A stretch of 64,000 nt of DNA from positions 1 through 64,000 of the forward strand of contig CAJNOH010000675.1 in assembly GCA_905250005.1 (NCBI GenBank), read 5' to 3'. The notes beneath the pieces are model-generated. The model saw only the letters and a list, made by a program, of their open reading frames with translations, did no database searches and was not told where the DNA came from. Both the position numbers and the translations under genes were made by a program. Origin of the DNA: Rotaria sordida. Taxonomy: Eukaryota. Positions 7,365-64,000 of this stretch are shown piece after piece (positions within the stretch are counted from its first letter, which is position 1; the number at the start of each line of letters is the position of its first letter).

Positions 7365-7367
7365 ATA

Positions 7368-7390
<23 letters not shown>
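7365..7390. repeat. (AT)n microsatellite followed by T-run, in MVP-B intron 8
   Basis: atatatatatatatatatatatatat followed by 21 T. Confidence 0.9.
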
Positions 7391-7398
<8 letters not shown>

Positions 7399-7405
7399 TT
7401 TGTAC

Positions 7406-7646: not shown

Positions 7647-7711
7647 CTAAAGAATTCATTCGTGTTTTTTTATTTATTTATTTATAATCAATTGAATATT
7701 TATTATCTTAC

Positions 7712-8040: not shown

Positions 8041-8102
8041 CTAATTAAATAAATGAAAAAAGGACATAAAAAAAATTTTTAAAAATTCAAAAATAAATTT
8101 AC

Positions 8103-8695: not shown

Positions 8696-8753
8696 CTATA
8701 ATAAAAATAAATAAATAAATAAAAATTCTTGATATTAAAAATCAATCTCTTAC

Positions 8754-8938
8754 GTTGGACCACGAATCATCCATCGATCACCAGGATTTCGATCTGTACC
8801 AGCTTGTTCATCAGTAAATGCTTCAATACATTTAAGAATAACACCTTCATCTTCACCTAATATATAAACATCTTGAATACCATTTTCAAGTTTTTCACCT
8901 GGTTGAAGAAAAAATGATTTTTCACCAACAATAAGTTT
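8754..8938 (-). CDS. MVP: major vault protein paralog B, exon 5
   Basis: Encodes [62 protein letters not shown]; the donor is GTAAGA. Confidence 0.85.
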
Positions 8939-44520: not shown

Positions 44521-46169
44521 TATCTTAAATATTTTTTGGATTTTATCGTGTATGATTTTGTAGAAAATTTCAAACGCTATCTTTTGATAGAAAAAAGTAT
44601 TTGAATATAGAAGAAGAATTTTTGAAAATATTAACAATGCAATTATATATGATCCATCCGATCTATATTTATATTCTGTAAACTTACACTGTACTAATAA
44701 GATTAATGAATAGATTATTGATAAAGATTTTCAAATAGATTAACCTATAAATCTAATATTATTTAACAATTTCAATCATTCGAAACTCTTATATGAATTC
44801 TACGTATAAAAATGAAACACTTCTATATTTAGCTGTTGTTAATCGTGCATAAAAAATAGAAATATAAGCGTATGAAATGATTACATTTTCTCTCAAAATC
44901 AAAAAATGTTTATATTCAAATGATGTGACATCTCACCCATCATTACAATTTTCTATCGTAAAAAATTTCTTTTCAATAAGTAATTTTTATATATATTATA
45001 TGATAGAATTTGACATATGCCGAAGAAAAAGATATAATATGAAAACGAAGAAAAATCAAAAATTGTTTTCTTTTAATTTCCTTTTTCTTTCTTCTATAAT
45101 CTTATATTTAATCAATATATTATATGAAATCGATCAGATGAACAAAACTAGACTAGACATCGTTTTATATATGAATGCTATATAAATAAAAATAAGTTAG
45201 CATTGAATGCATCCATCTTCATAAACTAAAAAACATATTCCATAGTGAACGATCAATCAGATTTTCAAGGATCTATGTTGTTGTGTTCGAGCTAAGGTGT
45301 AAAGGTTTCTAATGTTTTTTGTTTTGTGCTATCTCTTGAGATTGAGAACAATCGAATACATTAAGAAAAAAGAAAATTCTATTTCATATCATATATATCA
45401 ACCACGAAGGTAAGAAATTCTTGATCTTGCGCGCTTGTAGTTTGTATCTCACGTTTCTCATTATTGAGAATAGAGTGCATACATTCAGACTTGTTTTTCT
45501 TTTTTTTTGGTAAGTAAAGATGTAAAGTATCATCCGATGAAAAAAATTTTAATTCATAACGGACATATGTTTTTTGTTATTCATCTAATCAATAGATGAA
45601 ACGATTCGTCTACCTTTTCAATTACTTCTCTTAACTATTGGTCCATTAATCATCATCAATTTTCCATTTCTTATGTTGTGTTTTTTTTTTTTTTTATAAC
45701 ATATGTAAATCATTCATTCAATTAATCTATCGATTCATTTTACAAATATAATCATTTTGTTTTTCTTTTGCTATAAGAGATTTCAAACGAACAAATACAA
45801 ACAAAACAAAAAAAAAATCCAATCTCATTTTGTTAACACGTTCATATTCAATTGATTATTAGTACTCTAGAAAACTATATAAAGAATCAATTATTAATCT
45901 TTTCGGAGAACTAACATAAAGAACATTTATAAAAAAAAAAGAGTGTACGAAACATGTTCTACTCATATATATTATTATATCATTCATTCATTTATATTAT
46001 AACATAGTTTTCTTTTTTGTATTATCTCTAGCAAATTGTCTTTGTTTTTTTTTTTTTTTTATTTTGTTTCTTTAAACTAATGATTGATTATTATGTCTTT
46101 CTTTCATTCTAGTTCCTACTATTAACCTATCATTATCATCGTCATCTTCTTTATTTTATAATCATTAAT

Positions 46170-46511
46170 ATGAAGGCAAAATTAATATTTCTTGTTGGTC
46201 TTCTAACCGTATTGTTTTTATTTCATTTCAATACTGTTGAATCAACAATATTCACAAATAGTGATGAACCATGGGATGATACCAGTTCTGAAGATTCATA
46301 TGAATTAGATAAACGTCTTACAGCGGCTAAATTTGCTAGTGGTCTTGGCAAACGTTTAACATCAGCAAAATTTGCTAGCGGTCTTGGCAAACGTTTAGCA
46401 TCAGCAAAATTTGCTAGTGGTCTTGGCAAACGTTTAGCATCAGCTAAATTTGCTTCTGGTTTGGGTAAACGACTTGCATCAGCTAAATTTGCATCGGGAT
46501 TGGGCAAATAA
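46170..46511 (+). CDS. neuropeptide prohormone, intronless: signal peptide + acidic spacer + 5 tandem L[TA][AS]AKFASGL-G-(KR) units
   Basis: Sequence is MKAKLIFLVGLLTVLFLFHFNTVES | TIFTNSDEPWDDTSSEDSYELD KR LTAAKFASGLG KR LTSAKFASGLG KR LASAKFASGLG KR LASAKFASGLG KR LASAKFASGLG K*. Dibasic cleavage sites plus a C-terminal Gly predict five -ASGL-amide decapeptides. A TATA-like ttttataa lies at 46153-46160 and an AATAAA at 46592. Confidence 0.85.
   Translation: MKAKLIFLVGLLTVLFLFHFNTVESTIFTNSDEPWDDTSSEDSYELDKRLTAAKFASGLGKRLTSAKFASGLGKRLASAKFASGLGKRLASAKFASGLGKRLASAKFASGLGK
46313..46507 (+). repeat. 39-nt tandem repeat x5 inside neuropeptide CDS (one unit per peptide copy)
   Basis: Five nearly identical units aaacg(t/a)tta(ac/gc)atcagc(a/t)aaatttgc(t/a)(a/t)g(t/c)ggt(c/t)t(t/g)gg(c/t). 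The first unit begins aaacgtcttacagcggct. Confidence 0.85.
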
Positions 46512-46591
46512 GCAAAAATGAAAAACATTTTCTTTTTTTTTTTCCTCATGTGAATATGGACAAGCAATGGAATTATATTTCCTTCAATCAA

Positions 46592-46597
46592 AATAAA
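46592..46597 (+). promoter_or_regulatory. polyadenylation signal AATAAA of the neuropeptide gene
   Basis: AATAAA lies 81 nt after the stop codon. Confidence 0.5.
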
Positions 46598-47000
46598 AAT
46601 AGAAAAAATTTTATTGATTGTTGCTTAGTTTTGTGTAATTCATCATGCATAGGAACGCGAAATATTTAATAAAGAATGGTCTATGTGGAAGATGCATTTA
46701 CTTTTTTGTTTTTTATATTCACAACTAATTGATAGTTTCAATGATTGATTAAACCGATGACGGGTCTATATTGAAAATATCATTCATTCATTTTGAATCT
46801 TAACGACGAGGTCATCGTCTCTTCTTTATCATATATATATATATAAATATGTCCATTTTTTTTTATTTAAATGTATTCTTTCATTGGTCTTTCTCTATAA
46901 TGCATTGAACCGTAACGGTGATAGTAAATGTATGAGAGTCTATAACATTTTTATTATCGATTTTCATTGATACATACGTATAAATTAAAAAATACAACAA

Positions 47001-47294
47001 ATGTCCTATCGTTTTATATATCCAAATGGAGGAAATCCAACAATTGGTTATGGTATTGATCCAACATTTATGTCAACTGGATATCCAAATATATATAATG
47101 ATCCTCAAAGATTTTATTCACCGGAATCATATTCATCGGATAGTGATAGTAGTGATGATTATGAATATGAAGGTCGAATGATTACACGTGAAACAAAATG
47201 TCTACAAGATATAGTTCGTGCATCAACTCCACCACCGATTATTAAACGAGTTGTTGAACGAGCTCCAACACCTGAACCAGCTATGATGGAACGA
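47001..47294 (+). CDS. proline-rich repeat protein, exon 1
   Basis: ATG, then MSYRFIYPNGGNPTIGYGIDP...DSDSSDDYEYEGRMITRETKCLQDIVRASTPPPIIKRVVERAPTPEPAMMER, then a GTAAGC donor. The track ORF reads on through the intron. Confidence 0.6.
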
Positions 47295-47359
47295 GTAAGC
47301 AACAATGAAAAAGAAAAATTATATTTTCTTATTCTTTTCTATTATTATCTTATTTTCAG

Positions 47360-47484
47360 GTTATTATTCGACCACAAGCTCAGGAAATTGTTGAACGTGT
47401 TATTGAACAATCACATACACCACCACCACGTCTTATACAAAAAGAAATGCAAGAAGAAGCACCACCACCAATTGTACGAACACG
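47360..47484 (+). CDS. proline-rich repeat protein, exon 2
   Basis: Encodes VIIRPQAQEIVERVIEQSHTPPPRLIQKEMQEEAPPPIVRT(R), a repeat of the xIVERVxE..TPxP motif from exon 1. The donor is GTAATT. Confidence 0.6.
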
Positions 47485-47544
47485 GTAATTTTTTTTTTAA
47501 TCATTTTAAGTTTTATCCTAAGAAAAAAAAAATTTATTTATTAG

Positions 47545-48094
47545 TATTATTAAAGTCGATCGTCCACTTTGTAATGGTTATAATCAATCAGGTTCACCAT
47601 ATAATCAATTATCATCATTTTCTAATGATGCTAATAATAGTTATCGATCTCAATCTATTGGCGGTTCAGTTGGACGACCAGCTGTACTTCCTAATCGAAG
47701 TTTTTCATCATCATCAAGTTTTGAATATATTTCATCAAAACCTATGGCATCAGTTCCACCATCATCAACAATGATACTTATGTCTGCATCACAACAAGCA
47801 CAACCTTTTGGTATTATGCAACAACCGCAACAACAAACTATGTATCGGCCATTTCATATGCCATCATCACTTCCACCACCACCATTATCATCATCTTTTA
47901 TTCCTCAAAATTATACATATCCTGTACATCATCCTGGTATGTCATTTGGTTATCGTCCAATGATGCAACCAGGTCGAATGATTCCAAATGTTATGCCAAT
48001 GATGACAGCTATGAATACATTTGGTATACCAACAAATAATTTTCCAAATCAATCAACATTATTTAATCCAATGATTCAACCATTAGTTTATTAA
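47545..48094 (+). CDS. proline-rich repeat protein, exon 3 (stop TAA)
   Basis: Joins in frame to track ORF 47744-48094. Encodes IIKVDRPLCNGYNQSGSPYNQ...MASVPPSSTMILMSASQQAQPFGIMQQPQQQTMYRPFHMPSSLPPPPLSSSFIPQNYTYPVHHPGMSFGYRPMMQPGRMIPNVMPMMTAM...IQPLVY*. Confidence 0.6.
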
Positions 48095-48748
48095 AAAAAA
48101 TAACATCATTTGACATGAACTATACATAGTCAGATAATAGGACTATACATTTCATTCTTCCTTTTTTTTTGTTTTTTTTTTTTTGATGTATTATTATTAC
48201 TATTATAGTTCATTTGTAGAAGAATATTCATGTTCAAAAATTAGATCTTATTATAAATAAATAAAAAAAAAACTTTATGATTTTTTTTCGTTTCAATAAA
48301 AAAAATGGTTATTTATAGAATTCGTTATGAGAACAATATACTTGTTTTTTTTTGCATTTCTATTCTGATATAATGAAAGATTTTATAAGATTTCTTTAAT
48401 TAACAACTGAAAAACAAACTTCGTATTTGATGTAGAAATTGCATTATCTCATTTTTGTCCGTCATCTATAGATGTCGTTTTAGATAAAATTAAAACTAAA
48501 AAATTAAATATTTCCTATTAATTTTCAAAACATTATCTTCTAAAAATTTAATTTTATTTCATAATATTTGATTTTAATTGTCTCTGCCTCATTATTTAAT
48601 TCAATATGAGTGAATTGTTCAACGAAACAATATGGTCGTATAATCGACAACTAATATTCTTTGTTTGTTTGTTTTATTCTCTATTATATATACATTCAAA
48701 CACTCGTCTAATCTCCTTTCTCTCTATTCAATATACATTATTATAATC

Positions 48749-48815
48749 ATGCCAGCTACACGTGATGATGATGTTTATCAAGCTAAATTAGCTGAACAAG
48801 CTGAACGTTATGAAG
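48749..48815 (+). CDS. YWHAE: 14-3-3 epsilon, exon 1/5
   Basis: Encodes [22 protein letters not shown] (human [22 protein letters not shown]). The donor is GTAAAA. Confidence 0.88.
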
Positions 48816-48887
48816 GTAAAAAAATAAAATAAAATAAATTTGATTAATTAGAAAAATATTAAATAAAATTTATAATTTAAAAAATAG

Positions 48888-49087
48888 AAATGGTTGATTC
48901 TATGAAACGAGTAGCAAAAATGGATCAAGAATTAACAGTTGAAGAACGTAATTTATTATCTGTTGCTTATAAAAATTTAATTGGTGCACGACGAGCATCA
49001 TGGCGTATAATTACAAATATTGAAAGTAAAGAAGAAACTAAAGCAGGAAATAGTAAAACTGCATTAACTAAAAAATATCGTTCTCAG
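48888..49087 (+). CDS. YWHAE: 14-3-3 epsilon, exon 2
   Basis: Encodes [67 protein letters not shown]. The donor is GTTTGT. Confidence 0.9.
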
Positions 49088-49150
49088 GTTTGTTATTAAA
49101 TATAATAGATTTTTTTTGTTTTTATTTTTATATCGAATTATAATTTAAAG

Positions 49151-49477
49151 GTTGAAAAAGAATTACGTGATATATGTCAAGATATTCTTGATTTACTTGA
49201 TAAACATCTTTTACCAAATGCAGCATCAGGTGAAAGTAAAGTATTTTACTTAAAAATGAAAGGTGATTATCATCGATATAAAGCTGAATTTGCTACACAA
49301 GATGATCGTAAAGAAGCTGCTGAAAGTTCTCTTATTGCATATACAAAAGCTAATGATATAGCACAAAATGAATTACCACCAACACATCCAATAAGACTTG
49401 GTTTAGCATTAAATTTTTCGGTATTTTATTATGAAATTTTAAATACACCAGAACGTGCTTGTCGATTAGCTAAACAA
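49151..49477 (+). CDS. YWHAE: 14-3-3 epsilon, exon 3
   Basis: Encodes [109 protein letters not shown], near-identical to vertebrate 14-3-3 epsilon. Confidence 0.92.
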
Positions 49478-49539
49478 GTAAGAATTTGTTTTTTTGTTTT
49501 ATTTGTAATATTTTACAAAATTTAATTTAATCTTTTTAG

Positions 49540-49594
49540 GCTTTCGATGATGCAATTGCTGAATTGGATACACTTAATGAAGATACATATAAAG
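49540..49594 (+). CDS. YWHAE: 14-3-3 epsilon, exon 4
   Basis: Encodes AFDDAIAELDTLNEDTYK. Confidence 0.88.
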
Positions 49595-49651
49595 GTTTGA
49601 ATAAAAAAATAAAACTTTTTTCTTTATGTTTTTTTTTCTTTCTTTAAATAG

Positions 49652-49770
49652 ATTCAACATTGATTATGCAACTTTTACGTGACAATCTCACATTGTGGAC
49701 AACCGATATGCCTGGTGATAATGATAATGGCCAGAATGAAGTACAAGATGTTGATGATGAACAAAAGTGA
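49652..49770 (+). CDS. YWHAE: 14-3-3 epsilon, exon 5 (stop TGA 49768-49770)
   Basis: Encodes [39 protein letters not shown]. The total is 255 codons, the same length as 14-3-3 epsilon. Confidence 0.9.
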
Positions 49771-52700
49771 ATGAATTTTATGTTTAAAAAACAGAAAAAA
49801 AAAATAAAAACAAAATTCCTTTTTCTTTTTTTTTGTTTCGTTTCAATCTCTCACATTTCTTTTTTTTTTTTTCATTTATTATAAACAACAAAAACTTCTT
49901 TTTTTTTCTTTTGTGTGTATTCTAATGTGAATCTCTTTCTATATATTGTAAAACGACGAGTGTGAGAATGATGATGATGATGATTTAATTGAAACAAACG
50001 ATTCGTGACGAGTAGACATGATTAGTCAGGAAATCTTCTCGTCTAATTCTTTTTTTTTTCTTTCTTGCTCTTCACACGCACATAAATACACATTCCTAAT
50101 TTATCTTTCAATTGACAAATCTTTTATGCGATTATGTACACTTTCTGCACATCAACATAAATCTTCGTCTTTTCGTTTTGTCTTCATGTATTCCAATATA
50201 TATATATATATATATAAATAAATGAGTGTGTCGCTATGTTATCACCAATGCTTTGCAGTTATCACATTCAATTTTCGTTTTTCTATTGAATAAAATACAA
50301 TAAAAAGAAAAACATATATATATATATATATATAGGACTGATCAAAAATAAAAGAACAACTTAGTTTTGATTATGATCTACTAAAAGTTTTCTATACGAA
50401 ATGTTTATAGATGAGGACTATAAGAAAAAGGTTTGCGCAAAAACCCAAATATAATAGTTTTCAGGTGCCCGAAGACTACGTGAAAATTAGTTTGTTAAGG
50501 GTATGAACAAAATGAGAGGTTACCACGTTTTTCACGGTCTTTCCTTCGAAAGTTATAACCATTATCAAAGAAAATTCAATTTTTTGTTTTTGTATTTTTG
50601 ACTGGAACTGTATATGAAAAGAATTACTTGAGAAATATTTTCGATTGGAACCTGAATTCCCAACGGGTCTACTTTTCGTAGGCTGGATCAAATGTTTTAT
50701 CCAAATTTTGGACGATTTAAAAGTCCACCGATTTTCAGAGGACTTCTGCTCTTCGACTCCCACACTATATAAAACACTGGCTAAATCTGTTCATGTATTA
50801 TTTGTTTCTAATATACTAATACACATTTCAAAAAAGAAAAAGGATGTATATTTTTTGAATAAATTTTGATAGAAACTAGATAGAGAGATTTGGTTTTCAC
50901 TGTTTAAAAGAGGAGATGAAACTGCATTGAATAGTCTATATCAGATTTTTCTGAGAAATATTCTCAGAGTCTCTCGTCAATTTTTTCATGATAATATGTA
51001 TAACTCATGATTGGCTAAAGCTTACAACATCGGACTTACAGAATTTATAGAACATCAGTTAACGATTCTAGTGCATTCTTGAAAATTGGGATCGTAAAAG
51101 TTTTATATTAAATAATCTTTTGTATTTAACAAACTTGATGGTAGACTCTGAGGAAACTTGTTTACAAAAAAAATCTGATATAGACGATTCGATGCGGTTT
51201 CATCTCTTCTGTTAAACGATGAAAACCGAACTTCTCTAACTAGTTTCTATCAAAAGTTATTCAAAACATATCCATCCTTTTTCTTTTTTTGAAATGGATA
51301 TTAGTATTATGATGGTAATTGAATGAAAACAGAAGGCTTTCTTTAGAAAATGACATAACTTTACGAAAGACTTATTGATTTAAGCAGATTCTAGTCCTTT
51401 CCGGACATCAAAATTTCAGACTTTTCCAGCCGTTACATAGCTTGAAGTGTCGTTTGATTGTTGAGCTTATGTAGAAAAATTTTAATTTACTTTTGTTAAT
51501 ATCAATTTTCTTCATAGAAATTTCGAAGTTTTCACTCAGATATTGCAACTAATACCGCTGAAACTTTTTCCGAGACATCTTTGAATAAATTAGGATAGGC
51601 TTTTTTTCTTTTTCTCGAAAAATATGATACTGATGAATTTTGACAGATCTTACAAAGAACATGGTTTTTTTTCATAGGACTTTGAAAAATTTGTCTCTCC
51701 TCAGCCAACAATTCAATTAATAGACGGTGGTTTTTTTTCTGTGTTGAAAATTTAAATGAATAAACTCAATAGTCTATTTGAACCTCTGATGTAAACCTTT
51801 TCCCATAATAGAAAACCTCCATTAGTGAATTAATTTCTCGCAAAATTGAAATTTTAATTAGTATATTCACACTAAAAAAAAAATGTGTAATGTTTTGATT
51901 TTTTGAACTAACAAATTCTCAAAATAGTTTTAACTCTTTCGAAAAGAAAAAAAAAATGAAATATGATTACTGTAAAGAAAATAAATTCTCTAAATAGAAC
52001 TCATTGTCTTTTTAAATAATCGATCGATTGGATTTTAGTTTTCAATAAACAGAAATCGATATTACAAAAGAAAAAAAAAAAAAAAGCTCATTATCTATCT
52101 ATAACATCTCTTTATAGACAATAGCTAATCTGAGTCATTCAATTCCAAGTGAAGTATCTTCTTGCATAAACTCAAGTTCACTTTACTTATCAATTGAAGC
52201 AATTAACACATCATATTTCTTTTTATATCAACTGACGGCTGTTCTTATGATGTAATTATTGTGTTCTATGGAAAAAAAAAAAATTAATCTTCTGATATTA
52301 TCATCGATAGGATTCTTCTTTTCTTATCAGAAAATATCATCTATTAAGTTTTTCTTTTTTCTTTAAAATTTATTTTAAATAAATTAGTTGATTATAGTAT
52401 TTTAAAAAATATTCTTTTTCTATTTTACCATTATGTTAATTAAACAAATAATAAAATGAAATACTTTTAAAAATTTCGAATTTATTGACCTGTGAAAATC
52501 ACTTTATATCAGTCAAGTGAATCGATTCTTATCTTTTTTGCTTTTCATATGTTCAGGTCATACAAGCATATGCAATTTAGATCGATAAAACCGCTATTTG
52601 CTTTCTATTCATCATCTTTTTTTTCTATCATATTGTTAATAATCTATCCTTGAATGATGATTATTCTTTCTCATTCCTAATATTCATCATATCAAATAAC

Positions 52701-55700
52701 TACATATGTTCAAAAATGTATATTTGTCTATGCCAATATTATAATAACTTAAAATAAAATGTATAAATAAATATATATATATATATGTAAATATGTATTC
52801 GTTTGATATTGACTAATATGAAAAAAAAAAAACTAAATCTTACACATGTAAAATTGTTCATAAGGCTAAAAATATAGTCGACATTCATAAGAAAAAAAGT
52901 CTATCTATATAATCGTCGTTATTGTCTTTCAGTGACATTTTGTCTAGTTTGTACACGACTCCAGGCAACCTATGTTTGACTACTATCATCGTAAGCGACC
53001 TCCCGCTATTATTAACATCGGAAGCGCAATATATCTCAAATGTTAGGCGATTACATATGTGTATATGTCGAAATAAACGGTGTTATAAATAATTACATCA
53101 ATTATCATAGACGTATATATATATATATATATATATCGATTAAAACAAACCGCTTTGTCAAATCAATGTAATAAAGAAAAGCATTTAAATAATCGTTTTA
53201 AAACGTGCCTTGATACAGTTGAGTCAAGCGTATAAAAATCGATTTATAAATTACATGAATAAAACAAAAAAGAAAAAGAAATTGTCAAGAAATAAGTCAA
53301 AATTTGTTTACAAGAAAATTTTACTAGTAAGTTAATATTATTATTATTATTATTATTATTAACTGTATGCCATGACAAGAAAAATTTATCATATACTAAC
53401 AAATTTCAAAATTAATCCATCTTCAAAAAATGTTGCATGCAATGTCGCGACGATGAGATCGAACTCAATTGACTACAAACTTTAATGATCTAACAGCACG
53501 CTATGCCAGTAGTGCTACTGTCATATGCACTCTTGAGATATTTGAGAAGAAGAAAAAAAAATAAAAATGGGTGTGTATATATACATGCCACTCGAACATC
53601 AATGATTGAACAGCACAGTAGGGCAGCCAAAAGAAAGAGAGATGAGAGAACGGAAGAAGAAGGAGAAGGAGAAGGGAACTATGTTAAAAAAAAATCATCT
53701 TCCTTTGTATGTCAGTCATTCTATTAAGATACAATAGAAATATGAATATATATATATATATATTATAAAATAATCAAATGTATGTCTCAAATGTATTTAC
53801 ATTTTAATAGTAAATACACATGCAATTGTCTTTGTACGATTGATTAGATGTGTGACGAGAAAAAGTAAGTTTGCTTGAATAGAAGTTTTGAACATATGTT
53901 CTTTATTCTTTTACTATCAAAAAATAATTGTCAGAAGAAGAAGGTATTATTAATAGAAGTTATACATTGCTTCTTCTGTAAATTTTTTCTTTTAAGCGGA
54001 TCCAATTAATAGGAAAAGAAAGAGGTCAAGTGGAATATGATAGTGAATAGGTTTGAACAGGTGGACTCATTAGATTATTTGTGTTATGTTTTAGTATAGT
54101 GGAAGATGATGAAGTGTGTTTGTCTAATTTGAAAAGATCGGCTTTTTTTTTGTTGCTAGTAACGCTTAAATGTAATAAAAGTGAAGAGGGTGTTTTTATT
54201 CTATAAATATATATGTAAGTACTGTTTAATTTATAATGAACAATCAGCTGTTTTAGTTCTTTTTTTTCTGTGTATATTTAGAATTGTTAATCATTCATCT
54301 TTTTTTATTTTATTTATTTAACACAAATCTTATTGACAAGGTCATTATTGACATATTTGATGGTGCAAGAAGTTTAATTAAGAAAGGAAATAGATGTAGA
54401 ATCTTTTTCTTTTCTATTTTCTTTTTTTTACCAGAATGGAATATAGATACATATACCCTGGAGTGTTTATATTCGTGTTTCTTTTTTTATCATATTAAAT
54501 CATTGAAAAATTCATATATATTGTCGATTATCTTTTTTCATTGAGATGTATGTTGTATCGTTTATTTATACATTGACCACACGTCATTTATAAGTGTAGC
54601 CTTAGAAAAGTTAGCAATAGTCACCATTTGCCTTGCCTACTTTATAATTGAAAAGTTTCGATTTAATTCATTTTATCTCAATTGTTATGAATGAGCCTTT
54701 TACATTAAGAGTAAAAGTGAATGGTCATTTAATGACATCGGGCAAGTTGACATATACATATAATGTATATCAGTATGTAAAAGAAAAAAAAATGAATTGA
54801 GGTCAAGCAGATGGTTAAGACGGAAATTGTGGTTATTATTTTTTTTTTGTTTTTGAGAATGAATAATTATTGAAAAAAGTGTTAAAAAAGTATAATGATA
54901 ACTTCAAAAGAATGAACAGTTCTTTTGAGATTAATCATTAACACAGCTGTAGTCACGCTTTATATACTTGCATTTGAAATTGAGCTGAATATATATGTAT
55001 ACGTTTTTTTTCTTATTTCTTCTATGTTAGATGAAGAACAACTATTCAAGAGGGAATTATCTTTCGTTTCACTTCATTTCTCTATTTGCTTATTTCACAT
55101 CTCTTATGTTGATGTTTTTATGTTAATCATCACATACATACATATTTATTGACAGCAATGTTTGCTTCTTTTATCATAGAATCTGATGAAATATCATCCG
55201 TTCATAATCATAAGCCTCATTTATATCGTCTAGTAGAATAACAAGAAGAAAAAAAAATGTCAGCTTTTCTTAAATTAGATTTACTAACTGTTTCTGTCAT
55301 TAGTATTAAAGCAAATAGATAAATCTTTGAACGTCCGACATATATCTTGAACATCGATTGAATTGTATTGATAAGATAGAAAGAACAAGTCAATGTGAAT
55401 CAAGGTCGGTTGGCGCTTCTCTCTTTTTCTTTCCATCGATTAGTATCACTGATTTAAGTATACATGATGCAACCGAATACTATCGACAAGGTGTTTTCTT
55501 TTTGACTGTTTTTTTTTTAATTGTCGACATAGCTTAGTAACATTACAATTTTAGATATATTAATAAAAAAAAATCTTTTCATCATCATCTTTCTTGGTTA
55601 TTACATAAGACTATTTGAATTAATTTATATTACTATTGTATTTGTATGTAGACAACATACAAGCATGCAGCGTACGTAATTACTTTATTATAAGAGAATG

Positions 55701-55791
55701 TCGAACACTTCTATTATTCAAATACATTCAAAGATTATGTTTTTTATTTGTCTGTACAATATCTATTTGATATATATATATACATTTTCAG

Positions 55792-56616
55792 ATGATGTTT
55801 ATCTTATTCATTTTCTTTCTTATCCATAAAAGTCAATCATTAGAATGGAATTGTACTGAAACTAAACATTATCTTTTTTTGAATGATCAAATATATGAAC
55901 AGTGTACAATTACAATTGAATATATATCATTAGAACAACAACAACAACAACAACAATATAAACAAATATGTATAACACATAGTTTATCAATAAAAACTCT
56001 TCCACCAATATCATTTTTATCAAATTATACAATGCATACATTTAAAATAAATTCATGTCAATTATTAACATTAAATCAATTACCATTTTTATTACCATCA
56101 TCAGTTGAAAATCTTGATTTAAGTTATAATTTATTATCAACATTTACATTATCATTTCCATTACCATCATATCTTAAATATTTACGTCTTGATCATAATC
56201 CAAATTTAATTGATATTAATTTTGGTTATAATCATATACAACAACGTTTAATTGGTCTTAGTCTTCGTCATAATAAAAATATCAAATTAACATCTTTACC
56301 AGTATATTTAAAACAACTTGATTTAACTAATTGTAATGTATTACAATCATCAATATTATCATTATTAAAAACATTAACAAAATTAACTCATTTATCATTA
56401 GCTAATAATCAATTAACACAATTACCTATAATTGATAAAAGAATACAACTTGAATATCTTAATTTATCAAATAATAATTTGACATTTATTGAAAATGAAT
56501 GGTTACATAAATCATTAAAAATACTCGATCTTAAATATAATCAATTAGAATCACTTAAATTTTTTAATCAAATATTAAAAATAAATCAAACATTAAAACA
56601 AAATAATCATAATCAA
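55792..56616 (+). CDS. leucine-rich-repeat transmembrane receptor-like protein, exon 1 (signal peptide + LRRs)
   Basis: Track ORF. Signal peptide MMFILFIFFLIHKSQS, then repeated LxxLxLSxNxL units (LDLSYNLLSTF, LRLDHNPNL, LDLTNCNV, LSLANNQLTQLP, LNLSNNNLTFI, LDLKYNQLESL). The donor is GTAAGT at 56617. Confidence 0.8.
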
Positions 56617-57709
56617 GTAAGTATGAAATTTATCTTTTATTTTTTTTTTTTTGATTAGAAAATTTATATTAGACAACGTATATATATATATGTTGATTTG
56701 TTACTATATCATATGAAATTCAATATGAAAATAAAATTATCTATTTTTATTAATAAAATTTAAGATGATCTAGAAAACTGAATTTGTATAATTTTATTAT
56801 TAATGATGAAATCTAATCAATTCATATCTTTCTTATATAGTAAGCACTCAAGATGATTATCTTTAGTTTTCATGTATTTTATAAGATGTTTATATTGTAT
56901 AGGTCAAGTGATATAATTTTGTAAAGCATTTTTTCGAAGGATTTTTATCTAAGAAAATTTCTTCAATGTTATCCAGGAAAATAAAATGAAATTTTTCCTA
57001 GTTAATATAACTTCATAAACTTATTCATCTTAAACTGAACATTTCATTAGTTTAATCGTAGTCTCTCAAAAGAGATACTTTTTAAATAGACATTCAGCTA
57101 TTTAAGTACTTTCATAGCTATATATAGCGGCATCAACAAGACTCATTTCGTCGATGATTAATGATGCCAAATTTTGATTTTGAAAACTTTCTGGAGCATA
57201 ATTAATCATTGAAGTTCATGTAACACTAGTTCTCAGTTGATGAACAATACTCATATTTATACAAGAAGGGTGGGTGGGTGAAGTGGGGTGTGGGTGTAAT
57301 ATTGATTAATCACCCACGCACCCAAGTTCACACTCATCCGACACTCACACCCTTCATTCCACACTTCCCCCTCCCTTGCTCGAAAAGATAAGTAACATTG
57401 AAAAAAGTCGTTCATCATCAGATTAACCGCAATATCAGTTTGTTCATTACTACTGCGAATCATTAAATATTGTTTCGATTTGAACAGCTATTCATGCTGA
57501 TGTTTACGAATATCCAATGTTAAATAGACACCACAGAACTGTTTAAATAGCTATAGATGATTTAAGTAGCTACAATTTTTTTAAAATCATTTATATTAGA
57601 TAAAAATTGCATTGTCGTTTGAGAGTAAGCCTAGTTAATTCAATGATAATTTTCTTTTTAATATCTATTAATTATTAGGAAAAGATTTTTAATGAATGAA
57701 TTTTTCTAG

Positions 57710-59224
57710 ACAATAATCAATAATATTCTTCAACTTTCTTTACATGGTAATCCATTAATTTGTAATTGTTGGCTTGGTTCTATACTTTATTCATCTTCTA
57801 TCAATATTACTGATATATCTTTAATTCAATGTAATTCTCATTCAATTATGAATATATCTCAGGATAATTTTCTATGTCCATATTCTCAATATTGTGCATC
57901 TGATTGTTCTTGTTGTGATTTTGAAGCATGTGATTGTCATTCTGTATGTCCATCAGAATGTTTATGTTTACATGATAGTTTATGGTCAAATCATATTGTT
58001 CAATGTCAACAAAAAAATTTATTTGATATACATATACATTTACCTGAAACAATAACTGAACTTAATTATGAAGAAAATAATATTGAACAATTACAATCAT
58101 TTATATTTATTGGTAAAAATTTATTAATTAAATTAAATTTAGCAAGAAATAATATAAAAAATTTAACAAATGATATATTTTGTGGTGCATCAAATTTATA
58201 TGAAATTAATCTTAGTTATAATAAAAATTTAATAATAAAATTTTCATATATTAATGAATTATTTTCATGTTTAAAATATTTAAAATATATTATTTTATCA
58301 AAAGAACAAATTTATAATGATGAAGAAATTAATACTGAATGGATAATGGAATTAAATAATGATTTAATTCGTCTTATACGAATAAAACAACAATTATCTT
58401 TATCAACTTATAATCTTTCTACAATTTCAATATCTAAAAATATTTATCCATTACTTCAAACGGAAATTCAAACAACAACAACAATATTTTCTATTTATCA
58501 TCAACAATCATTAATTTCTTCAAATTTTATACAACATAATCAAACATTAATTATAATTGTGTTTTTTCTTTTATTATTTATTTTACTTTTTTTATTATTT
58601 CTTGTATTATTAGCTATATGTCGACGAAAACTTCGTCATCATTTAAAAATTGAACTTCAACGTCAACGTTCTCAACATTATTATCATCATAAAAATTTAC
58701 ATCAATCATCAATTCAAATTTCTAATAATAATAATAATAATAATAATAATGGAACAATTGGAGGAGGAGTAAATGAAAGTCTTTATGAACAATTACCATC
58801 ATTATCATCTGATAGTGAACAACCATTTTTATATAATGAAAAAAAATTAACTAATACAAATGCTCCAGCTTTACCACCATATCCACCTACATTTCGTCGA
58901 TATCATTGTTGTCATTCAATAAATTCACATGAATATCAATATAGTAGAAATACTTCAACAACAACAGCAGCATGTTGTTCATCATTAAATTTACAACAAC
59001 AACATTCATGTCCAGCAGTACTAGTCTTAAGAAATCCATCATTATATACAAATCATCATGATTATTCATGTGAATTACAACAATGTTTAGTTTCAAATCA
59101 ACAAGAAAAAAATTTCATATTTGGTTGTAATAATGAAACAAATTTTATACCAACAATTCTTTGTCAATGTAATGATCATATACAAAATATTGACACATGT
59201 ACCTATCCTAATGTACACAAATAG
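57710..59224 (+). CDS. LRR transmembrane receptor-like protein, exon 2 (LRRCT Cys-cluster, TM, cytoplasmic tail; stop TAG)
   Basis: Acceptor ttttctag|. Encodes TIINNILQLSLHGNPLICNCWLGS... (the LRR C-terminal flank), joining in frame to track ORF 57848-59224. This includes the Cys-rich CPYSQYCASDCSCCDFEACDCHSVCPSECLC, a TM helix IIIVFFLLLFILLFLLFLVLLAI, and an N/Q-rich tail. No TIR domain is evident. Confidence 0.8.
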   Translation, partial: TIINNILQLSLHGNPLICNCWLGSILYSSSINITDISLIQCNSHSIMNISQDNFLCPYSQYCASDCSCCDFEACDCHSVCPSECLCLHDSLWSNHIVQCQQKNLFDIHIHLPETITELNYEENNIEQLQSFIFIGKNLLIKLNLARNNIKNLTNDIFCGASNLYEINLSYNKNLIIKFSYINELFSCLKYLKYIILSKEQIYNDEEINTEWIMELNNDLIRLIRIKQQLSLSTYNLSTISISKNIYPLLQTEIQTTTTIFSIYHQQSLISSNFIQHNQTLIIIVFFLLLFILLFLLFLVLLAICRRKLRHHLKIELQRQRSQHYYHHKNLHQSSIQISNNNNNNNNNGTIGGGVNESLYEQLPSLSSDSEQPFLYNEKKLTNTNAPALPPYPPTFRRYHCCHSINSHEYQYSRNTSTTTAACCSSLNLQQQHSCPAVLVLRNPSLYTNHHDYSCELQQCLVSNQQEKNFIFGCNNETNFIPTILCQCNDHIQNIDTCTYPNVHK

Positions 59225-61363
59225 TGATTTGTTTTCAAGGAATATGTATCAATAAAAAATAAATGATGTTTTTAATAGAAACACATGTGTAATATTTTCA
59301 TGAGAGAAGTTTTTCAATTGATAAACCGTTGTTGACTCGAGCCTATGTGCATTATGTAGACACACATGAGCTATGAATACTTTGAAAAGCTGTCGTACAT
59401 TTAGTTTATTGCTGTAGAGATATTGTATTTTTACAGTGTTTTTTAAATTAATGCCGTGGCCGCCTCTTTAGTAGAGCCCATCGGGTCCGAATCATAAGAA
59501 AACTTTGATGTATATAATAATATGCTTTGAATTTTTGTTTGTTTTATTCAAAAAATAGGAAAAAACAACAAAACTCTTTTTGACTATGATATCTAAACAT
59601 AGTTACCATTGGGTTCGGATCCTTAGAGTCAGAAATTCTAAGATCCGATTACCTCTCGGAAACATCAAGAAAATTCATTTTCGAATTTCGATTTATAATT
59701 TTGCGTAGAGATAGGACGTGGATGCCAATCTTGCTCTTGTCTTCACGCATATCTACATCCAATCTATCTTTGATTGTAACGCGGCTTTCGTCTTTTAAAC
59801 TGTTTATTATGGTTTGTCATCTGAAAAAAGTAAGTTGTAAAAAAGAATATATAACAAGTCGTATTTGTTCATTCTATCCAGACTACTGAGAAATCAGTAT
59901 ACTAATAACGGAACCTTACAGAAAGAATCACTTTCCAGAACTTATCGAAATAAAGTATATTTCAGATCTGATCAGTTCTATGCCATGTTAGTTCTTTCAA
60001 AACAAATAATTTTTATTCGGAATCATGTAAACAGCAAACAGCGACTTTTTTGGAGAGAGAAAGAAGAGAATGTCTGCTGTTGTTCAACCAGCAGCCAGTT
60101 TGAGTGATTACAATGATAAACAAGGTCGTAGAGATTTGTTTTGAGCTGTTGTAGCATTCGATCTCGCTGACAATGGATTAATTGGATGATTTCACTTAGC
60201 AGAGTTCTCAAAAAAAAAACTTGAACATATCTATCAACAGAGCTCGACTGAGTATGTTAAATGGACTGGTTTTTCTCCTCGTGGAACCGTTTTTTGAAAT
60301 ATAAAATAAAGGTATGAAACAGAACCAGATTTTGCTAGACGACATGAAATAAATATAATAATTTCTATATCTACTGGAATTTCCTAGAATAGATCGACGT
60401 TGGGCGTGAATTTGTTTTATAGATATCGATATTTTCAGAGATTTCTTAATGATGTTTGCGTTGTTAGTCTTTATTCTCTGAAAACATCTAGAAATTTCCT
60501 TTTTGGAGAGTGATAATTGTCGAATTTATCTGGCAACAACTTTCTGATGGTTCAGCAATTTCGAGATTCACTCAAACATTTCTTAGTAATATTCGAGGAA
60601 TTTTTGTAATCTTCGGTTAATTTACCTCCGCCTTCATGACAAGTTTCGGTAAATATTGTTAACTTTTGAATGTTTCTGATAAATTTCTGTACTGTATTGT
60701 TTCATAGATTCTTTTAGTATGTCTGAAATTTTCATAAAATTTGGAAATCTGAACATATCTCGTTTTCTCAGTGTTTAAATTTCAATTTGTTACAGAAATA
60801 TCGACATAACTGATTAGTTATTGAAACAAGTCGTCAAAATCGTCGATCGTTTTTGATTATTCAATAAATAATACATCGTTTTTCAACATTGGTCTCTAGA
60901 TATAATCATCTTATAGTTATGTCAGCTCGATAATTTCTAACATCTGATTCTGTTTGATGTCGATGAATACGGAGCAAAATAGAAATGTGATAAGAGAATA
61001 AATATTCTAATTGGACGGAAGTAGGTTTTTTGCATGCAAAAAAAAATTGAATAAAAGCAAATAAAGACATACAATATCGAAAATTGAGCGTGTTTCTTTA
61101 GCTGCAAATGAAACATTGCTGATATCCTAAGTGATTCATTTGGATTTAGGACGATGGAGATACGTGTTGTAACAAATATGGACATCATCCGATGATGATT
61201 CGATAGATACGTAACGAGTGTCAAATGAAAATTTGTAGGACTGCAGTCAATTCACCGTACAGTCTAATTAGTGTTGTGAATATGTAGACAATATTATTTT
61301 GTTTTGGTATAATGATATTGACATATCGATGGAGCACATATTGGAATAATTGGCTGAATAATT

Positions 61364-61666
61364 TCATGATTCTAGTAAATACTCATCTAGAGTCGAGTCG
61401 ATTGAACTCGTTGATGGAAATCGTATTGCACTACGATTGAGTTTAGTGAAAGAACTATTTAGAGTTCTATTTAGTTGATGTACATAAATATCATCATAGA
61501 AACACTTGAATGTCGGATGAGAAAGACCATTCATGAGCGAGCATCCAATGACTAAATCTAAATGTATGAAAGGTAAAAGATAACTACCAGAGTGTTTCGA
61601 ATATCTTTTAATGAAAATACAATCGCACCACGGTTCGAATCGTAAAAGATAGGCATCTTTGTACAA
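61364..61666 (-). pseudogene. decayed reverse-transcriptase fragment (retroelement relic)
   Basis: The track ORF contains RT motif A-C-like strings ...LLPFIHLDLVIGCS...NGLSHPTFKCFYDDIYVH (FYDD, roughly the YxDD catalytic motif). The surrounding 60.9-62.8 kb has higher GC and short ORFs on both strands, typical of a degraded TE. Confidence 0.35.
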
Positions 61667-63755: not shown

Positions 63756-64000
63756 ATGAACAACACAATGTTAGAAAGACCAATAATAAAAACTGAATTA
63801 CCTGGTCCTAAAGCAAAACAAATAATTGATGAAGATACAAAATATGTAACACCATCGTTTATTCGTTATCCATACAAACTTGCTATAGAAAAAGCTTACG
63901 GTGTTTGGATTGAAGATACTGATGGTAATGTATTTATGGATTGTAATTCAGGCTTTGCTGTTTGTTCAACTGGTCATTGTCATCCTGAAGTTGTTGAAGC
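63756..64000 (+). CDS. class-III (PLP-dependent) aminotransferase, 5' part (continues beyond window)
   Basis: ATG at 63756. Encodes MNNTMLERPIIKTELPGPKAKQIIDEDTKYVTPSFIRYPYKLAIEKAYGVWIEDTDGNVFMDCNSGFAVCSTGHCHPEVVE. The ELPGPKAK...DxDGN...SG.AV...GH.HP pattern is characteristic of GABA/ornithine/acetylornithine-type aminotransferases. Open to the window end with no intron in the first 245 nt. Confidence 0.7.
   Translation, partial: MNNTMLERPIIKTELPGPKAKQIIDEDTKYVTPSFIRYPYKLAIEKAYGVWIEDTDGNVFMDCNSGFAVCSTGHCHPEVVE

What the first reader, a model, noticed from the sequence alone, without database searches (positions are those of the whole stretch)
46170..46511. Intronless multi-copy amidated neuropeptide prohormone (5 x L[TA][AS]AKFASGL-amide)
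The ORF has every hallmark of a neuropeptide precursor. It has a cleavable hydrophobic signal peptide and an acidic pro-region. Five near-identical 13-residue units follow, each ending in Gly, the amide donor, and separated by Lys-Arg dibasic sites. The last copy ends in a monobasic Gly-Lys. At the DNA level the units form a 39-nt tandem array, which means recent unit duplication. I do not recognise the predicted mature peptide LASAKFASGL-NH2 (variants LTAAKFASGL, LTSAKFASGL), so the family may be undescribed. The gene also carries a TATA-like box and a polyA signal, so it looks like a complete compact transcription unit.
Basis: partly seen in the sequence, partly recalled or inferred. Interest (0 to 1): 0.82.

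Follow-up and report, generated by a model that had tools for sequence, protein, structure and literature searches.

The report
Rotifer allatostatin-A-like neuropeptide precursor gene
This is a small gene of the bdelloid rotifer Rotaria sordida that encodes a secreted precursor for five copies of a 10-residue amidated peptide (x-KFASGL-amide); the neuropeptide reading holds, but a 2024 preprint already catalogued the family as the rotifer allatostatin-A/buccalin-type precursor, so the finding is real but ordinary.

Summary
Window 46170-46511 (+) is a 113-aa ORF with a signal-peptide-like N-terminus, an acidic spacer and five 13-residue units, L-x-x-A-K-F-A-S-G-L-G-K-R. The last unit ends in G-K-stop. 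The window is Rotaria sordida, a bdelloid rotifer and not a flatworm. The same protein is already called in public R. sordida assemblies. The locus is syntenic with the R. socialis gene that a 2024 bioRxiv preprint (NP-HMMer) lists as "Allatostatin-A_1". About 35 homologues exist across Rotaria, Adineta and Didymodactylos.

Codon evidence favours the + frame. Unit-to-unit differences are 39 synonymous against 10 non-synonymous. Ser and Leu codon families switch while the peptide stays the same. In the array, pN is 0.027 and pS is 0.308 against R. socialis.

The units are positional orthologues between species, so the array is old and not a recent duplication. The TATA-like motif next to the ATG is not conserved. 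An AATAAA 157 nt after the stop is conserved. The open antisense frame is a by-product of the repeat.

Allatostatin-A/buccalin orthology rests only on a short motif, F-A-S-G-L against Y/F-x-F-G-L. Pfam's model is sub-threshold, whole-precursor scores proved non-specific, and no receptor or peptide data exist.

Verdict: a new member of a known kind, of low interest.

The parts
46170..46511 (+). Complete single-exon coding sequence of the 113-aa prepropeptide, stop codon TAA included
   Evidence: The identical protein is called in R. sordida assemblies. It is syntenic with R. socialis 'Allatostatin-A_1'.
46170..46244 (+). Predicted signal peptide, residues 1-25 (MKAKLIFLVGLLTVLFLFHFNTVES), with inferred cleavage after Ser25
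   Evidence: Hydropathy and the -3/-1 rule. The hydrophobic core and the V-x-S motif are conserved in 17 homologues. SignalP was not run.
46245..46310 (+). Acidic spacer (pro-region), residues 26-47
   Evidence: Residues 26-48 hold 8 Asp/Glu and 1 Lys/Arg. This is the fastest-evolving part of the protein: pN is 0.187 for signal peptide plus spacer against 0.027 for the array.
46311..46316 (+). First Lys-Arg dibasic processing site (K48 R49)
   Evidence: R49 is invariant and K48 is at least 90% conserved in 17 homologues.
46317..46355 (+). Unit 1: LTAAKFASGL + G-K-R, predicted to give LTAAKFASGL-NH2
   Evidence: It is the positional orthologue of unit 1 in R. socialis, with 4 nt differences.
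46356..46394 (+). Unit 2: LTSAKFASGL + G-K-R, predicted to give LTSAKFASGL-NH2
46395..46433 (+). Unit 3: LASAKFASGL + G-K-R, predicted to give LASAKFASGL-NH2
   Evidence: It differs by only 2 nt from unit 2, which makes these two the most similar pair.
46434..46472 (+). Unit 4: LASAKFASGL + G-K-R. Ser8 is encoded by TCT, not the AGT/AGC used in units 1-3
   Evidence: It shows 1-3 nt differences to unit 4 of the orthologues against 6-10 to other units of its own gene.
46473..46511 (+). Unit 5: LASAKFASGL + G-K-stop. It needs only carboxypeptidase and amidation, with no endoproteolytic cut
   Evidence: The same G-K-stop ending is found in P0001-P0006 and P0022.
46072..46169 (+). Conserved upstream block. 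It holds TGATTGAT at 46081-46088 and a pyrimidine tract followed by AG at 46111-46112 and then TTCCTAC. It is either a spliced-leader trans-splice (or 5'-UTR intron) acceptor or an initiator. The putative 5'-UTR is 57 nt
   Evidence: Mean column identity is 77% between R. sordida, R. socialis and a metagenomic relative. The acceptor-like site is also present in a paralogue, in Adineta steineri and in A. vaga, and an acceptor-like site lies just before the ATG in D. carnosus. Its function is inferred. [quoted passage not shown]
46668..46673 (+). Probable polyadenylation signal AATAAA, 157 nt after the stop codon
   Evidence: It is invariant in the three-species alignment and lies inside a conserved block. 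An AATAAA lies 67-216 nt after the stop in all seven loci examined. The nearer AATAAA at 46592-46597 is AAGAAA in R. socialis.
46223..46591 (-). Open antisense reading frame (122 codons). It is a by-product of the repeat and not a gene
   Evidence: It is also open in the orthologues at 101 and 127 codons, because the reverse complement of the unit has no stop in that frame. pN/pS is 0.50 against 0.26 for the sense frame, and substitutions fall 17/7/32 on sense codon positions 1/2/3. It has no signal peptide or processing sites.

Best explanation
The gene encodes the prepropeptide of a small amidated signalling peptide of the bdelloid rotifer Rotaria sordida. It is the orthologue of the R. socialis precursor catalogued as 'Allatostatin-A_1'.

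Inferred mechanism:
- The 25-residue signal peptide directs the protein into the secretory pathway.
- A prohormone convertase cuts after each Lys-Arg.
- A carboxypeptidase removes the basic residues.
- Peptidylglycine alpha-amidating monooxygenase converts the exposed C-terminal Gly into an amide.

The products would be one LTAAKFASGL-NH2, one LTSAKFASGL-NH2 and three LASAKFASGL-NH2 per precursor. The peptides most likely act on a G-protein-coupled receptor. Their C-terminus (K-F-A-S-G-L-amide) fits the F-x-x-G-L/I-amide form of the buccalin/allatostatin-A family, so an allatostatin-A/galanin-type receptor is the prime candidate.

Shown here: the gene structure, the species, orthology and synteny, and purifying selection on the peptide and its processing sites. 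Inferred: processing, amidation, neuronal expression and receptor type.
For: Anatomy of the ORF.

Family and conservation:
- 35 homologues with E from 1e-51 to 1e-20, and every named one is a bdelloid rotifer.
- K-F-A-S-G-L-G-K-R and the Leu after each KR are invariant or nearly so in 17 sequences from three genera. The signal peptide and spacer vary.

Selection:
- Unit-to-unit codon differences are 39 synonymous against 10 non-synonymous, and the non-synonymous ones fall only at unit positions 2-3.
- Ser8 uses AGT, AGC, TCT and TCG. Leu uses CTT, TTA and TTG.
- Against R. socialis, dN/dS is 0.20, with array pN 0.027 and pS 0.308.
- The sense frame has the lowest pN/pS of all six frames.

Species and orthology:
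- A neighbouring LRR exon is 99% identical to an R. sordida protein.
- 18.2 kb of the window aligns at 98.5% to R. sordida contig CAJOBD010001439.1. The 113-aa gene called there is identical in protein.
- The exact product is called on 9 contigs.
- About 22 kb is colinear with the R. socialis locus.

Literature:
- The NP-HMMer preprint lists these precursors as rotifer Allatostatin-A.
- Buccalins and AstA share Y/F-x-F-G-L/I-amide, also written there as F-x-x-G-L/I-amide, and amidation is critical for receptor activation (PMC12509031).

Motif:
- Spider AstA D-R-F-A-F-G-L and bdelloid A-K-F-A-S-G-L are identical at positions -5, -4, -2 and -1.
- Monogonont L-D-K-M-K-Y-F-G-G-L and Didymodactylos L-A-N-M-K-F-A-S-G-L share L1, M4, K5, an aromatic at 6, G9 and L10.
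Against: - No transcript, peptide or expression data were available, so neuronal expression and amidation are inferred.
- The strict AstA motif is not met, because Ser replaces the central Phe at -3.
- Pfam Allatostatin PF05953 gives only 12.4 bits (E 0.29) against a cut-off of 33.5.
- Whole-precursor similarity is not specific. An unrelated control with the same 13-residue period (P0099...YSEII-G-K-R) scores 42 bits, inside the 27-57 bit range of the AstA, buccalin and monogonont precursors.
- The bdelloid profile also pulls 30 copepod MIP-like precursors.
- No bdelloid AstA-type receptor was identified here or found in the papers read.
- The preprint's authors themselves call all their rotifer peptides predictions.
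Confidence: 0.6

Rival explanations
1. It is a genuine amidated neuropeptide precursor, but of a rotifer-specific family that is not orthologous to allatostatin-A/buccalin. The F-x-x-G-L-amide ending would be convergent, and the peptide would signal through another receptor.
For: - The central Phe of the AstA motif is absent, and Pfam PF05953 is sub-threshold.
- Precursor-level scores are explained by the 13-residue period plus G-K-R, as the P0099 control at 42 bits shows.
- The profile retrieves copepod MIP-like precursors as readily as AstA precursors: 30 against 36 of the 94 hits inspected.
- No receptor evidence was found.
Against: - Four of the last five residues match chelicerate AstA, and [KR] at -6 is conserved.
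- There is a graded series from mollusc-like M-D-P-M-L-F-G-G-L through monogonont M/L-D-K-M-K-Y-F-G-G-L to bdelloid L-A-N-M-K-F-A-S-G-L.
- A curated AstA HMM picked these precursors, and no other AstA candidate was listed in the four rotifer proteomes searched.
Confidence: 0.3
2. It is a secreted multi-copy peptide with a non-neuronal role, for example a gland-secreted, defensive or antimicrobial peptide. It would be processed in the same way but would not act as a neuropeptide.
For: The architecture (signal peptide, acidic spacer, KR-flanked repeats) is shared by some multi-copy antimicrobial peptide precursors (general knowledge). No expression data were available. The peptide carries a conserved Lys.
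Against: The peptide has only 10 residues and a net charge of about +2. A 7-residue C-terminus that is invariant across three genera, together with an invariant amide donor, is typical of receptor ligands and not of fast-evolving defence peptides.
Confidence: 0.07
3. It is a non-coding 39-nt minisatellite that happens to be open in one frame, or the real gene lies on the antisense strand (46223-46591).
For: The antisense frame is open for 122 codons and stays open in the orthologues.
Against: - Synonymous codon-family switches preserve the + frame peptide.
- Substitutions are enriched at the third codon position, and the sense frame has the lowest pN/pS.
- The Met, signal peptide, KR sites and stop are conserved across genera.
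- Unit number and order are stable between species.
- Gene callers predict the + strand product in several assemblies.
Confidence: 0.01

Closest known systems
Rotifer 'Allatostatin-A' precursors of the NP-HMMer preprint (bioRxiv 10.1101/2024.07.20.604414): Rotaria socialis AstA_1 (Rsoc7983) and AstA_2 (Rsoc31746), Adineta ricciae Aric33919, Didymodactylos carnosus Dcar12455 and Dcar11442
   Same: The architecture and the peptide core K-F-A-S-G-L-G-K-R are the same. Rsoc7983 is also 113 aa with five units and the G-K-stop ending. It is 81% identical in protein and 83.6% in DNA, and it lies in a colinear locus followed by the same unnamed gene, a 14-3-3 gene and an LRR gene.
   Different: The species differs: R. 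sordida was not among the four proteomes mined. There are 21 amino-acid differences, almost all in the signal peptide and spacer. The unit variants are LTAA, LTSA and LASA here, against LTSA, LVSA and LASA in R. socialis.
Arthropod allatostatin-A (Y/F-x-F-G-L/I-amide; Pfam PF05953), for example spider precursor GFY66953.1 (P0037), and Drosophila and Daphnia AstA
   Same: It is a multi-copy precursor with Gly-Lys-Arg after each copy. The C-terminal [KR]-F-A-x-G-L matches chelicerate R-F-A-F-G-L at all positions except -3.
   Different: Ser replaces the hallmark Phe at -3. Pfam scores 12.4 bits against a cut-off of 33.5, whereas the spider control scores 50.7 bits. Unit spacing is perfectly regular with no acidic spacers between copies. 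The precursor is much shorter.
Molluscan buccalins (Aplysia Buc/AstA system, receptor apBuc/AstA-R; PMC12509031) and buccalin-like spiralian precursors (P0050 R-F-G-F-A-G-G-I, P0087 M-D-P-M-L-F-G-G-L, P0128 R-Y-G-F-A-G-S-L)
   Same: It has the F-x-x-G-L/I-amide ending with a small residue at -3, many tandem copies and an amidated C-terminus. Amidation is required for receptor activation in Aplysia.
   Different: It has no N-terminal Met-Asp and only five copies of near-identical peptides. No receptor is known in rotifers. The similarity is limited to 3-4 residues.
Monogonont rotifer AstA-like precursors (Brachionus plicatilis Bpli20339; P0064, P0089)
   Same: They belong to the same phylum and encode a decapeptide of the same length. 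L1, K5, an aromatic residue at 6, G9 and L10 are shared. Didymodactylos also shares Met4.
   Different: Monogononts have Y-F-G-G-L where bdelloids have F-A-S-G-L. Their copies are separated by long acidic spacers. Pairwise scores of 35-44 bits are no better than the unrelated periodic control.

Membership tests
Multi-copy amidated neuropeptide / peptide-hormone precursor (generic class) | N-terminal cleavable signal peptide | tested here: met
   The n-region is MKAK, the hydrophobic core has a mean hydropathy up to 3.05, and V-E-S sits at -3..-1. The feature is conserved in 17 homologues. This is a heuristic test only, because SignalP was not available.
Multi-copy amidated neuropeptide / peptide-hormone precursor (generic class) | Repeated peptide copies flanked by dibasic (Lys-Arg) convertase sites, each ending in Gly as amide donor | tested here: met
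   There are five units. G-K-R follows units 1-4 and G-K-stop follows unit 5. The Gly, Lys and Arg columns are invariant or at least 90% conserved.
Multi-copy amidated neuropeptide / peptide-hormone precursor (generic class) | Purifying selection concentrated on the mature peptide and processing sites, with relaxed spacer regions | tested here: met
   Array pN is 0.027 and pS 0.308. Signal peptide plus spacer pN is 0.187 and pS 0.486. Unit-to-unit codon differences are 39 synonymous against 10 non-synonymous.
Multi-copy amidated neuropeptide / peptide-hormone precursor (generic class) | Expression in neurons or endocrine cells and detection of the processed amidated peptide | not testable with these tools
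   No transcriptome or peptidome data were reachable. The homologue contigs examined are genomic.
Allatostatin-A / buccalin | Strict C-terminal motif Y/F-x-F-G-L/I-amide (PMC12509031) | tested here: not met
   The peptide ends F-A-S-G-L. Positions -5, -2 and -1 fit, but the Phe at -3 is Ser in every unit of every bdelloid homologue.
Allatostatin-A / buccalin | Relaxed motif F-x-x-G-L/I-amide, as used for the 19 Aplysia buccalins that activate apBuc/AstA-R | tested here: met
   K-F-A-S-G-L followed by Gly fits this motif.
Allatostatin-A / buccalin | Match to the curated family profile (Pfam PF05953 Allatostatin) above the gathering score | tested here: not met
   The score is 12.4 bits (E 0.29) against a cut-off of 33.5. 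The model appears tuned to arthropods. A buccalin-like precursor scores 8.2 bits, Brachionus AstA gives no hit, and an F-G-L-rich precursor scores 32.0 bits. Only the spider control passes, at 50.7 bits.
Allatostatin-A / buccalin | Sequence relationship to AstA/buccalin precursors beyond what generic precursor features give | tested here: inconclusive
   After the bdelloids, the profile search returns 36 canonical AstA, 8 buccalin-like and 2 monogonont precursors among the 94 hits inspected. It also returns 30 copepod MIP-like precursors and 13 non-peptide repeats. An unrelated control with a 13-residue period scores as high as the true candidates.
Allatostatin-A / buccalin | Cognate AstA/galanin-type GPCR present in the same genome and activated by the peptide | not tested
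   No verified receptor query was available. The papers read give no statement on a rotifer AstA receptor.
Myoinhibitory peptide / allatostatin-B (considered because copepod A-W-N-S-G-F-x-G-G-M precursors were strong profile hits) | Trp near the N-terminus and a C-terminal Trp-amide (W-x6-W-amide) | tested here: not met
   The predicted bdelloid peptides contain no Trp. The copepod family carries A-W-N at the start of each unit and true W...W-amide units at its C-terminal end. It also hits Lygus MIP at 3.7e-17.

The most novel reading that the evidence does not exclude
The bdelloid x-KFASGL-amide peptides are not allatostatin-A/buccalin orthologues. They would be a rotifer-specific neuropeptide family with its own receptor, and the 'Allatostatin-A' label in the 2024 preprint would be a motif-level coincidence driven by G-L-G-K-R and repeat periodicity.
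Probability: 0.3. Interest if true: 0.35.

Novelty: new member of a known kind. Interest (0 to 1): 0.2.

Why it matters
The finding matters little beyond annotation. It gives a name to an 'unnamed protein product' of Rotaria sordida. It shows that the five-copy array and its flanking control regions are conserved in bdelloids. It also supplies exact peptide masses for peptidomics.

Rotifers and other Gnathifera are the least explored spiralians for peptidergic signalling. A validated AstA/buccalin-type ligand-receptor pair there would help to date the Phe-to-small-residue change at position -3 and to reconstruct the ancestral spiralian AstA system. The analysis also warns that profile hits between multi-copy amidated precursors are strongly inflated by a shared repeat period and G-K-R sites.

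Tried and rejected
- **Peptide string searches.** Full-text searches for AKFASGL, FASGLamide and variants found nothing. The family appears only in a preprint's supplementary files.
- **Exact cluster look-up.** It reported the protein as absent. This was a false negative, because the gene-position index holds the exact product on 9 contigs.
- **Whole-precursor BLAST and HMM scores as a test of AstA orthology.** I rejected this test after an unrelated periodic control scored 42 bits.
- **The A-W-N-S-G-F-x-G-G-M precursors.** One of them has F-A-S-G-L-G-K-R. I followed them as possible relatives. They turned out to be copepod MIP/AstB-like precursors; the Tigriopus californicus one is auto-annotated 'buccalin-like'. 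They are not evidence of homology.
- **Bdelloid spliced leader.** I searched seven homologue contigs for the 23-nt leader as I recall it. There were no hits, and the contigs appear to be genomic.
- **Rotifer AstA receptor in the literature.** I found no statement, and the Aplysia receptor paper has no supplementary files held as text.
- **Rfam scan of 45000-47500.** It gave only a chance-level miRNA match.
- **Second copy in the window.** There is none.
- **Structure prediction.** I did not attempt it, because a short processed precursor has no fold to compare.
Full report
**1. The observation**

Window 46170-46511 (+) is an ATG-to-TAA ORF of 113 codons. Its product is MKAKLIFLVGLLTVLFLFHFNTVES / TIFTNSDEPWDDTSSEDSYELD / KR, followed by five 13-residue units. 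Tandem Repeats Finder reports a 39-nt array of 4.7 copies with 88% matches and score 250 at 46311-46492.

The units lie at 46317-355, 46356-394, 46395-433, 46434-472 and 46473-511. They encode LTAAKFASGLGKR, LTSAKFASGLGKR, LASAKFASGLGKR (twice) and LASAKFASGLGK-stop. A degenerate DNA pattern for KFA-x-GLGK hits five times, all here, against none in 100 shuffles.

The N-terminus has a basic n-region, a hydrophobic core with mean hydropathy up to 3.05, and V-E-S before the inferred cleavage site. The spacer has 8 acidic residues and 1 basic residue. Every descriptive element of the finding is therefore correct.

**2. Whose genome this is**

The window is 27% G+C. It carries major-vault-protein, exostosin and LRR exons. 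The precursor's homologues are all bdelloid rotifers where they are named: Rotaria socialis, R. sordida, R. magnacalcarata, Adineta steineri, A. vaga and Didymodactylos carnosus.

A 458-aa LRR exon of the window is 99% identical to an R. sordida protein, against 82-83% to other Rotaria species. In addition, 18.2 kb of the window aligns at 98.5% to R. sordida contig CAJOBD010001439.1. The 113-aa gene called on that contig has one synonymous difference. The exact protein is called on nine contigs of public assemblies, although the cluster table had reported it absent. The organism is Rotaria sordida and not a flatworm.

**3. Is the + frame a real gene?**

- Among the five units, pairwise codon differences are 39 synonymous and 10 non-synonymous. 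All non-synonymous differences fall at the variable positions 2-3.
- Ser8 is written AGT, AGC, TCT and TCG. The two Leu residues are written CTT, TTA and TTG. The DNA has therefore diverged while the peptide stayed fixed.
- Against the R. socialis orthologue (83.6% nt identity, no gaps), substitutions fall 17/7/32 on codon positions 1/2/3. The sense frame has the lowest pN/pS of the six frames, 0.26.
- Overall dN/dS is 0.20. In the array, pN is 0.027 and pS is 0.308. In the signal peptide plus spacer, pN is 0.187.
- In a 17-sequence alignment, K-F-A-S-G-L-G-K-R and the Leu after each KR are invariant or nearly so.

The antisense ORF at 46223-46591 is also open in the orthologues, simply because the reverse complement of the unit lacks stops. 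Its pN/pS is 0.50. It is a by-product of the repeat.

**4. Orthology and age of the array**

About 22 kb of the window (36252-58000) is colinear with the R. socialis locus at 71-81% identity. In both species the gene is followed by an unnamed gene, a 14-3-3 gene and an LRR gene. The coding sequence is a single 342-nt exon in the R. socialis and R. sordida gene models.

Units 1, 4 and 5 are closer to the same-numbered unit in R. socialis and in a metagenomic relative (1-4 nt differences, up to 6 for unit 1) than to other units of their own gene (6-11 differences). Only units 2 and 3 are close to each other, at 2 differences.

Four- and five-copy precursors occur in Rotaria, Adineta and Didymodactylos. 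The array therefore predates these species splits. 'Recent unit duplication' is not supported. The near-identity of the peptides reflects selection.

**5. Flanking signals**

- **TATAAT.** The motif at 46157-46162 lies 8-13 nt before the ATG and reads TATTAT in both orthologues.
- **Motif background.** TATAAA occurs 217 times and AATAAA 350 times in the window, against 197 and 291 in shuffles. A bare match to either motif therefore means little.
- **Upstream block.** What is conserved is a block upstream of the ATG (46072-46169). It contains TGATTGAT at 46081-46088 and a pyrimidine tract followed by AG at 46111-46112 and then TTCCTAC. This arrangement is also found in a Rotaria paralogue, in A. 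steineri and in A. vaga. An acceptor-like site lies just before the ATG in D. carnosus.
- **Interpretation of the block.** Bdelloids trans-splice a 23-nt leader onto more than half of their transcripts (PMC1925144). The block therefore fits a trans-splice acceptor, but it also fits an initiator. I could not tell the two apart.
- **Poly(A) signal.** The AATAAA at 46668-46673, 157 nt past the stop, is invariant within a conserved block. The nearer one at 46592 is not conserved. All seven loci examined have an AATAAA 67-216 nt after the stop.

**6. What it is called in the literature**

Main-text searches for the peptide found nothing. The supplement of bioRxiv 10.1101/2024.07.20.604414 (NP-HMMer, 2024) prints R. 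socialis 'Allatostatin-A_1' (identical to P0002, 81% identical to this ORF) and 'A_2' (identical to P0022). It also prints the Adineta ricciae precursor, two Didymodactylos precursors (identical to P0033 and P0035) and a Brachionus AstA with K-M-K-Y-F-G-G-L-type peptides.

The authors state that before their work only an AKH-like precursor was known in rotifers, and that all their peptides remain predictions. The family is therefore described, but only in silico.

**7. How solid is the allatostatin-A/buccalin assignment?**

The Aplysia receptor paper defines the family by Y/F-x-F-G-L/I-amide, also written there as F-x-x-G-L/I-amide. It shows that amidation is critical.

- The bdelloid ending K-F-A-S-G-L-amide meets the relaxed motif.
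- It matches chelicerate R-F-A-F-G-L at every position except -3.
- It lacks the hallmark Phe.
- Pfam's Allatostatin model is sub-threshold at 12.4 bits against 33.5. The same model also misses Brachionus and buccalin-like precursors.

A profile of 17 bdelloid precursors searched against 1.84 billion representatives gave 130 hits. After the bdelloids, the 94 hits I inspected comprised:

- 36 canonical AstA precursors
- 8 buccalin-like precursors
- 2 monogonont precursors
- 4 x-M-G-F-amide precursors
- 30 A-W-N-S-G-F-x-G-G-M precursors
- 1 unrelated S-E-I-I-amide precursor
- 13 non-peptide repeats

The A-W-N-S-G-F group turned out to be copepod MIP/AstB-like. One is Tigriopus californicus 'buccalin-like isoform X1', which ends in W...W-amide units, and the profile hits Lygus MIP.

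In local BLASTP, the unrelated 13-residue-period control scored 42 bits, as high as AstA, buccalin and monogonont precursors at 27-57 bits. Wamide and FMRFamide controls without that period scored 15-19 bits. Precursor-level similarity is therefore dominated by shared period and G-K-R sites.

The AstA link rests on a 5-6 residue motif plus a plausible graded series: mollusc-like M-D-P-M-L-F-G-G-L, monogonont L-D-K-M-K-Y-F-G-G-L, Didymodactylos L-A-N-M-K-F-A-S-G-L and Rotaria L-A-S-A-K-F-A-S-G-L. I found no receptor evidence. I therefore treat the gene as working like an AstA/buccalin-type precursor, with family membership provisional.

**8. Mechanism**

Shown: gene structure, conservation, and selection on the peptide and its processing sites.

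Inferred from established prohormone biochemistry: signal-peptide cleavage after Ser25, convertase cleavage after each Lys-Arg, carboxypeptidase trimming, and amidation of the exposed Gly. One precursor would give one LTAAKFASGL-NH2, one LTSAKFASGL-NH2 and three LASAKFASGL-NH2. Their [M+H]+ values are 977.578, 993.573 and 963.562. The fifth copy needs no endoproteolytic cut.

The invariant internal Lys could be part of the receptor pharmacophore or a minor monobasic cleavage site. The likely receptor is a GPCR of the AstA/galanin type. This is untested.

**9. Verdict**

This is a correct and well-described observation of a real gene. It is the R. sordida orthologue of an already catalogued rotifer AstA-like precursor. 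R. sordida also has a four-copy paralogue (P0009), consistent with bdelloid genome duplication. It is a new member of a known kind and of low interest. The residual open question is whether the family is truly AstA/buccalin.

Noticed in passing
window 46072-46125; L001 9900-9960; L007 ~935-1015; L015, L017 upstream of 1501: A conserved non-coding element lies upstream of the precursor gene. TGATTGAT, which I recall as resembling a PBX/HOX-type site, is followed 20-60 nt later by a pyrimidine tract, AG and TTCCTAC. It is shared by Rotaria orthologues, a Rotaria paralogue and Adineta. It could be a neuron-specific enhancer with an initiator, or a trans-splice acceptor.
   Followed up: partly
L017 1501-1842 (Adineta steineri CAJNOI010000030.1): The genomic ORF encodes a 113-aa, five-unit precursor. 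The deposited protein (P0006) has 100 aa and four units over the same 342-nt range. The gene model appears to have removed one 39-nt repeat unit as an 'intron', which is probably an annotation artefact.
   Followed up: partly
P0233, P0038-P0060 and others; L014 (SRR33369762), L013 (SRR7990546): A large, mostly unnamed family of copepod precursors carries A-W-N-S-G-F-x-G-G-[MLVI]-G-K-R and G/A-W-N-N-F-x-G-G-Y-G-K-R units. The Tigriopus californicus member is auto-annotated 'buccalin-like'. However, it ends in W...W-amide units and the family profile hits Lygus MIP. It therefore looks like an allatostatin-B/MIP family in which the C-terminal Trp was replaced. No paper in the library contains these peptide strings.
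   Followed up: partly
window 3862-5565 (+) and 6916-8763 (-): Two major vault protein genes lie tail to tail (convergent). Both have Vault_3, Vault_4 and shoulder domains and are roughly 70% identical in protein by eye, so they are old paralogues and not a recent inverted duplication.
   Followed up: partly
The exact-sequence cluster look-up reported the 113-aa protein as absent from the collection. The gene-position index holds the identical product on nine contigs of NCBI R. sordida assemblies. A negative exact look-up is therefore not reliable evidence that a protein is unannotated.
   Followed up: yes
window 45799-64000 versus L011 (GCA_905332095.1): The window differs from the deposited R. 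sordida contig by 1.5% (180 mismatches and 48 gap openings over 18.2 kb). This fits another haplotype or isolate and not the same sequence.
   Followed up: no
P0040, P0102, P0109: Unnamed precursors carry M-D-P-N-A-F-H-M-G-F-G-K-R or F-N-P-N-K-F-Q-M-G-F-G-K-R units (x-M-G-F-amide). The first type has a buccalin-like Met-Asp start. The taxon is unknown. They may be AstA/buccalin-type peptides of another phylum.
   Followed up: no
window 47001-48094 (+), 48749-49776 (+): Immediately downstream lie a multi-exon gene for a Pro/Gln/His-rich protein with no Pfam match (322-331 aa in the R. sordida and R. socialis annotations) and a 14-3-3 gene. Both are in conserved order in R. socialis and R. sordida.
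   Followed up: no
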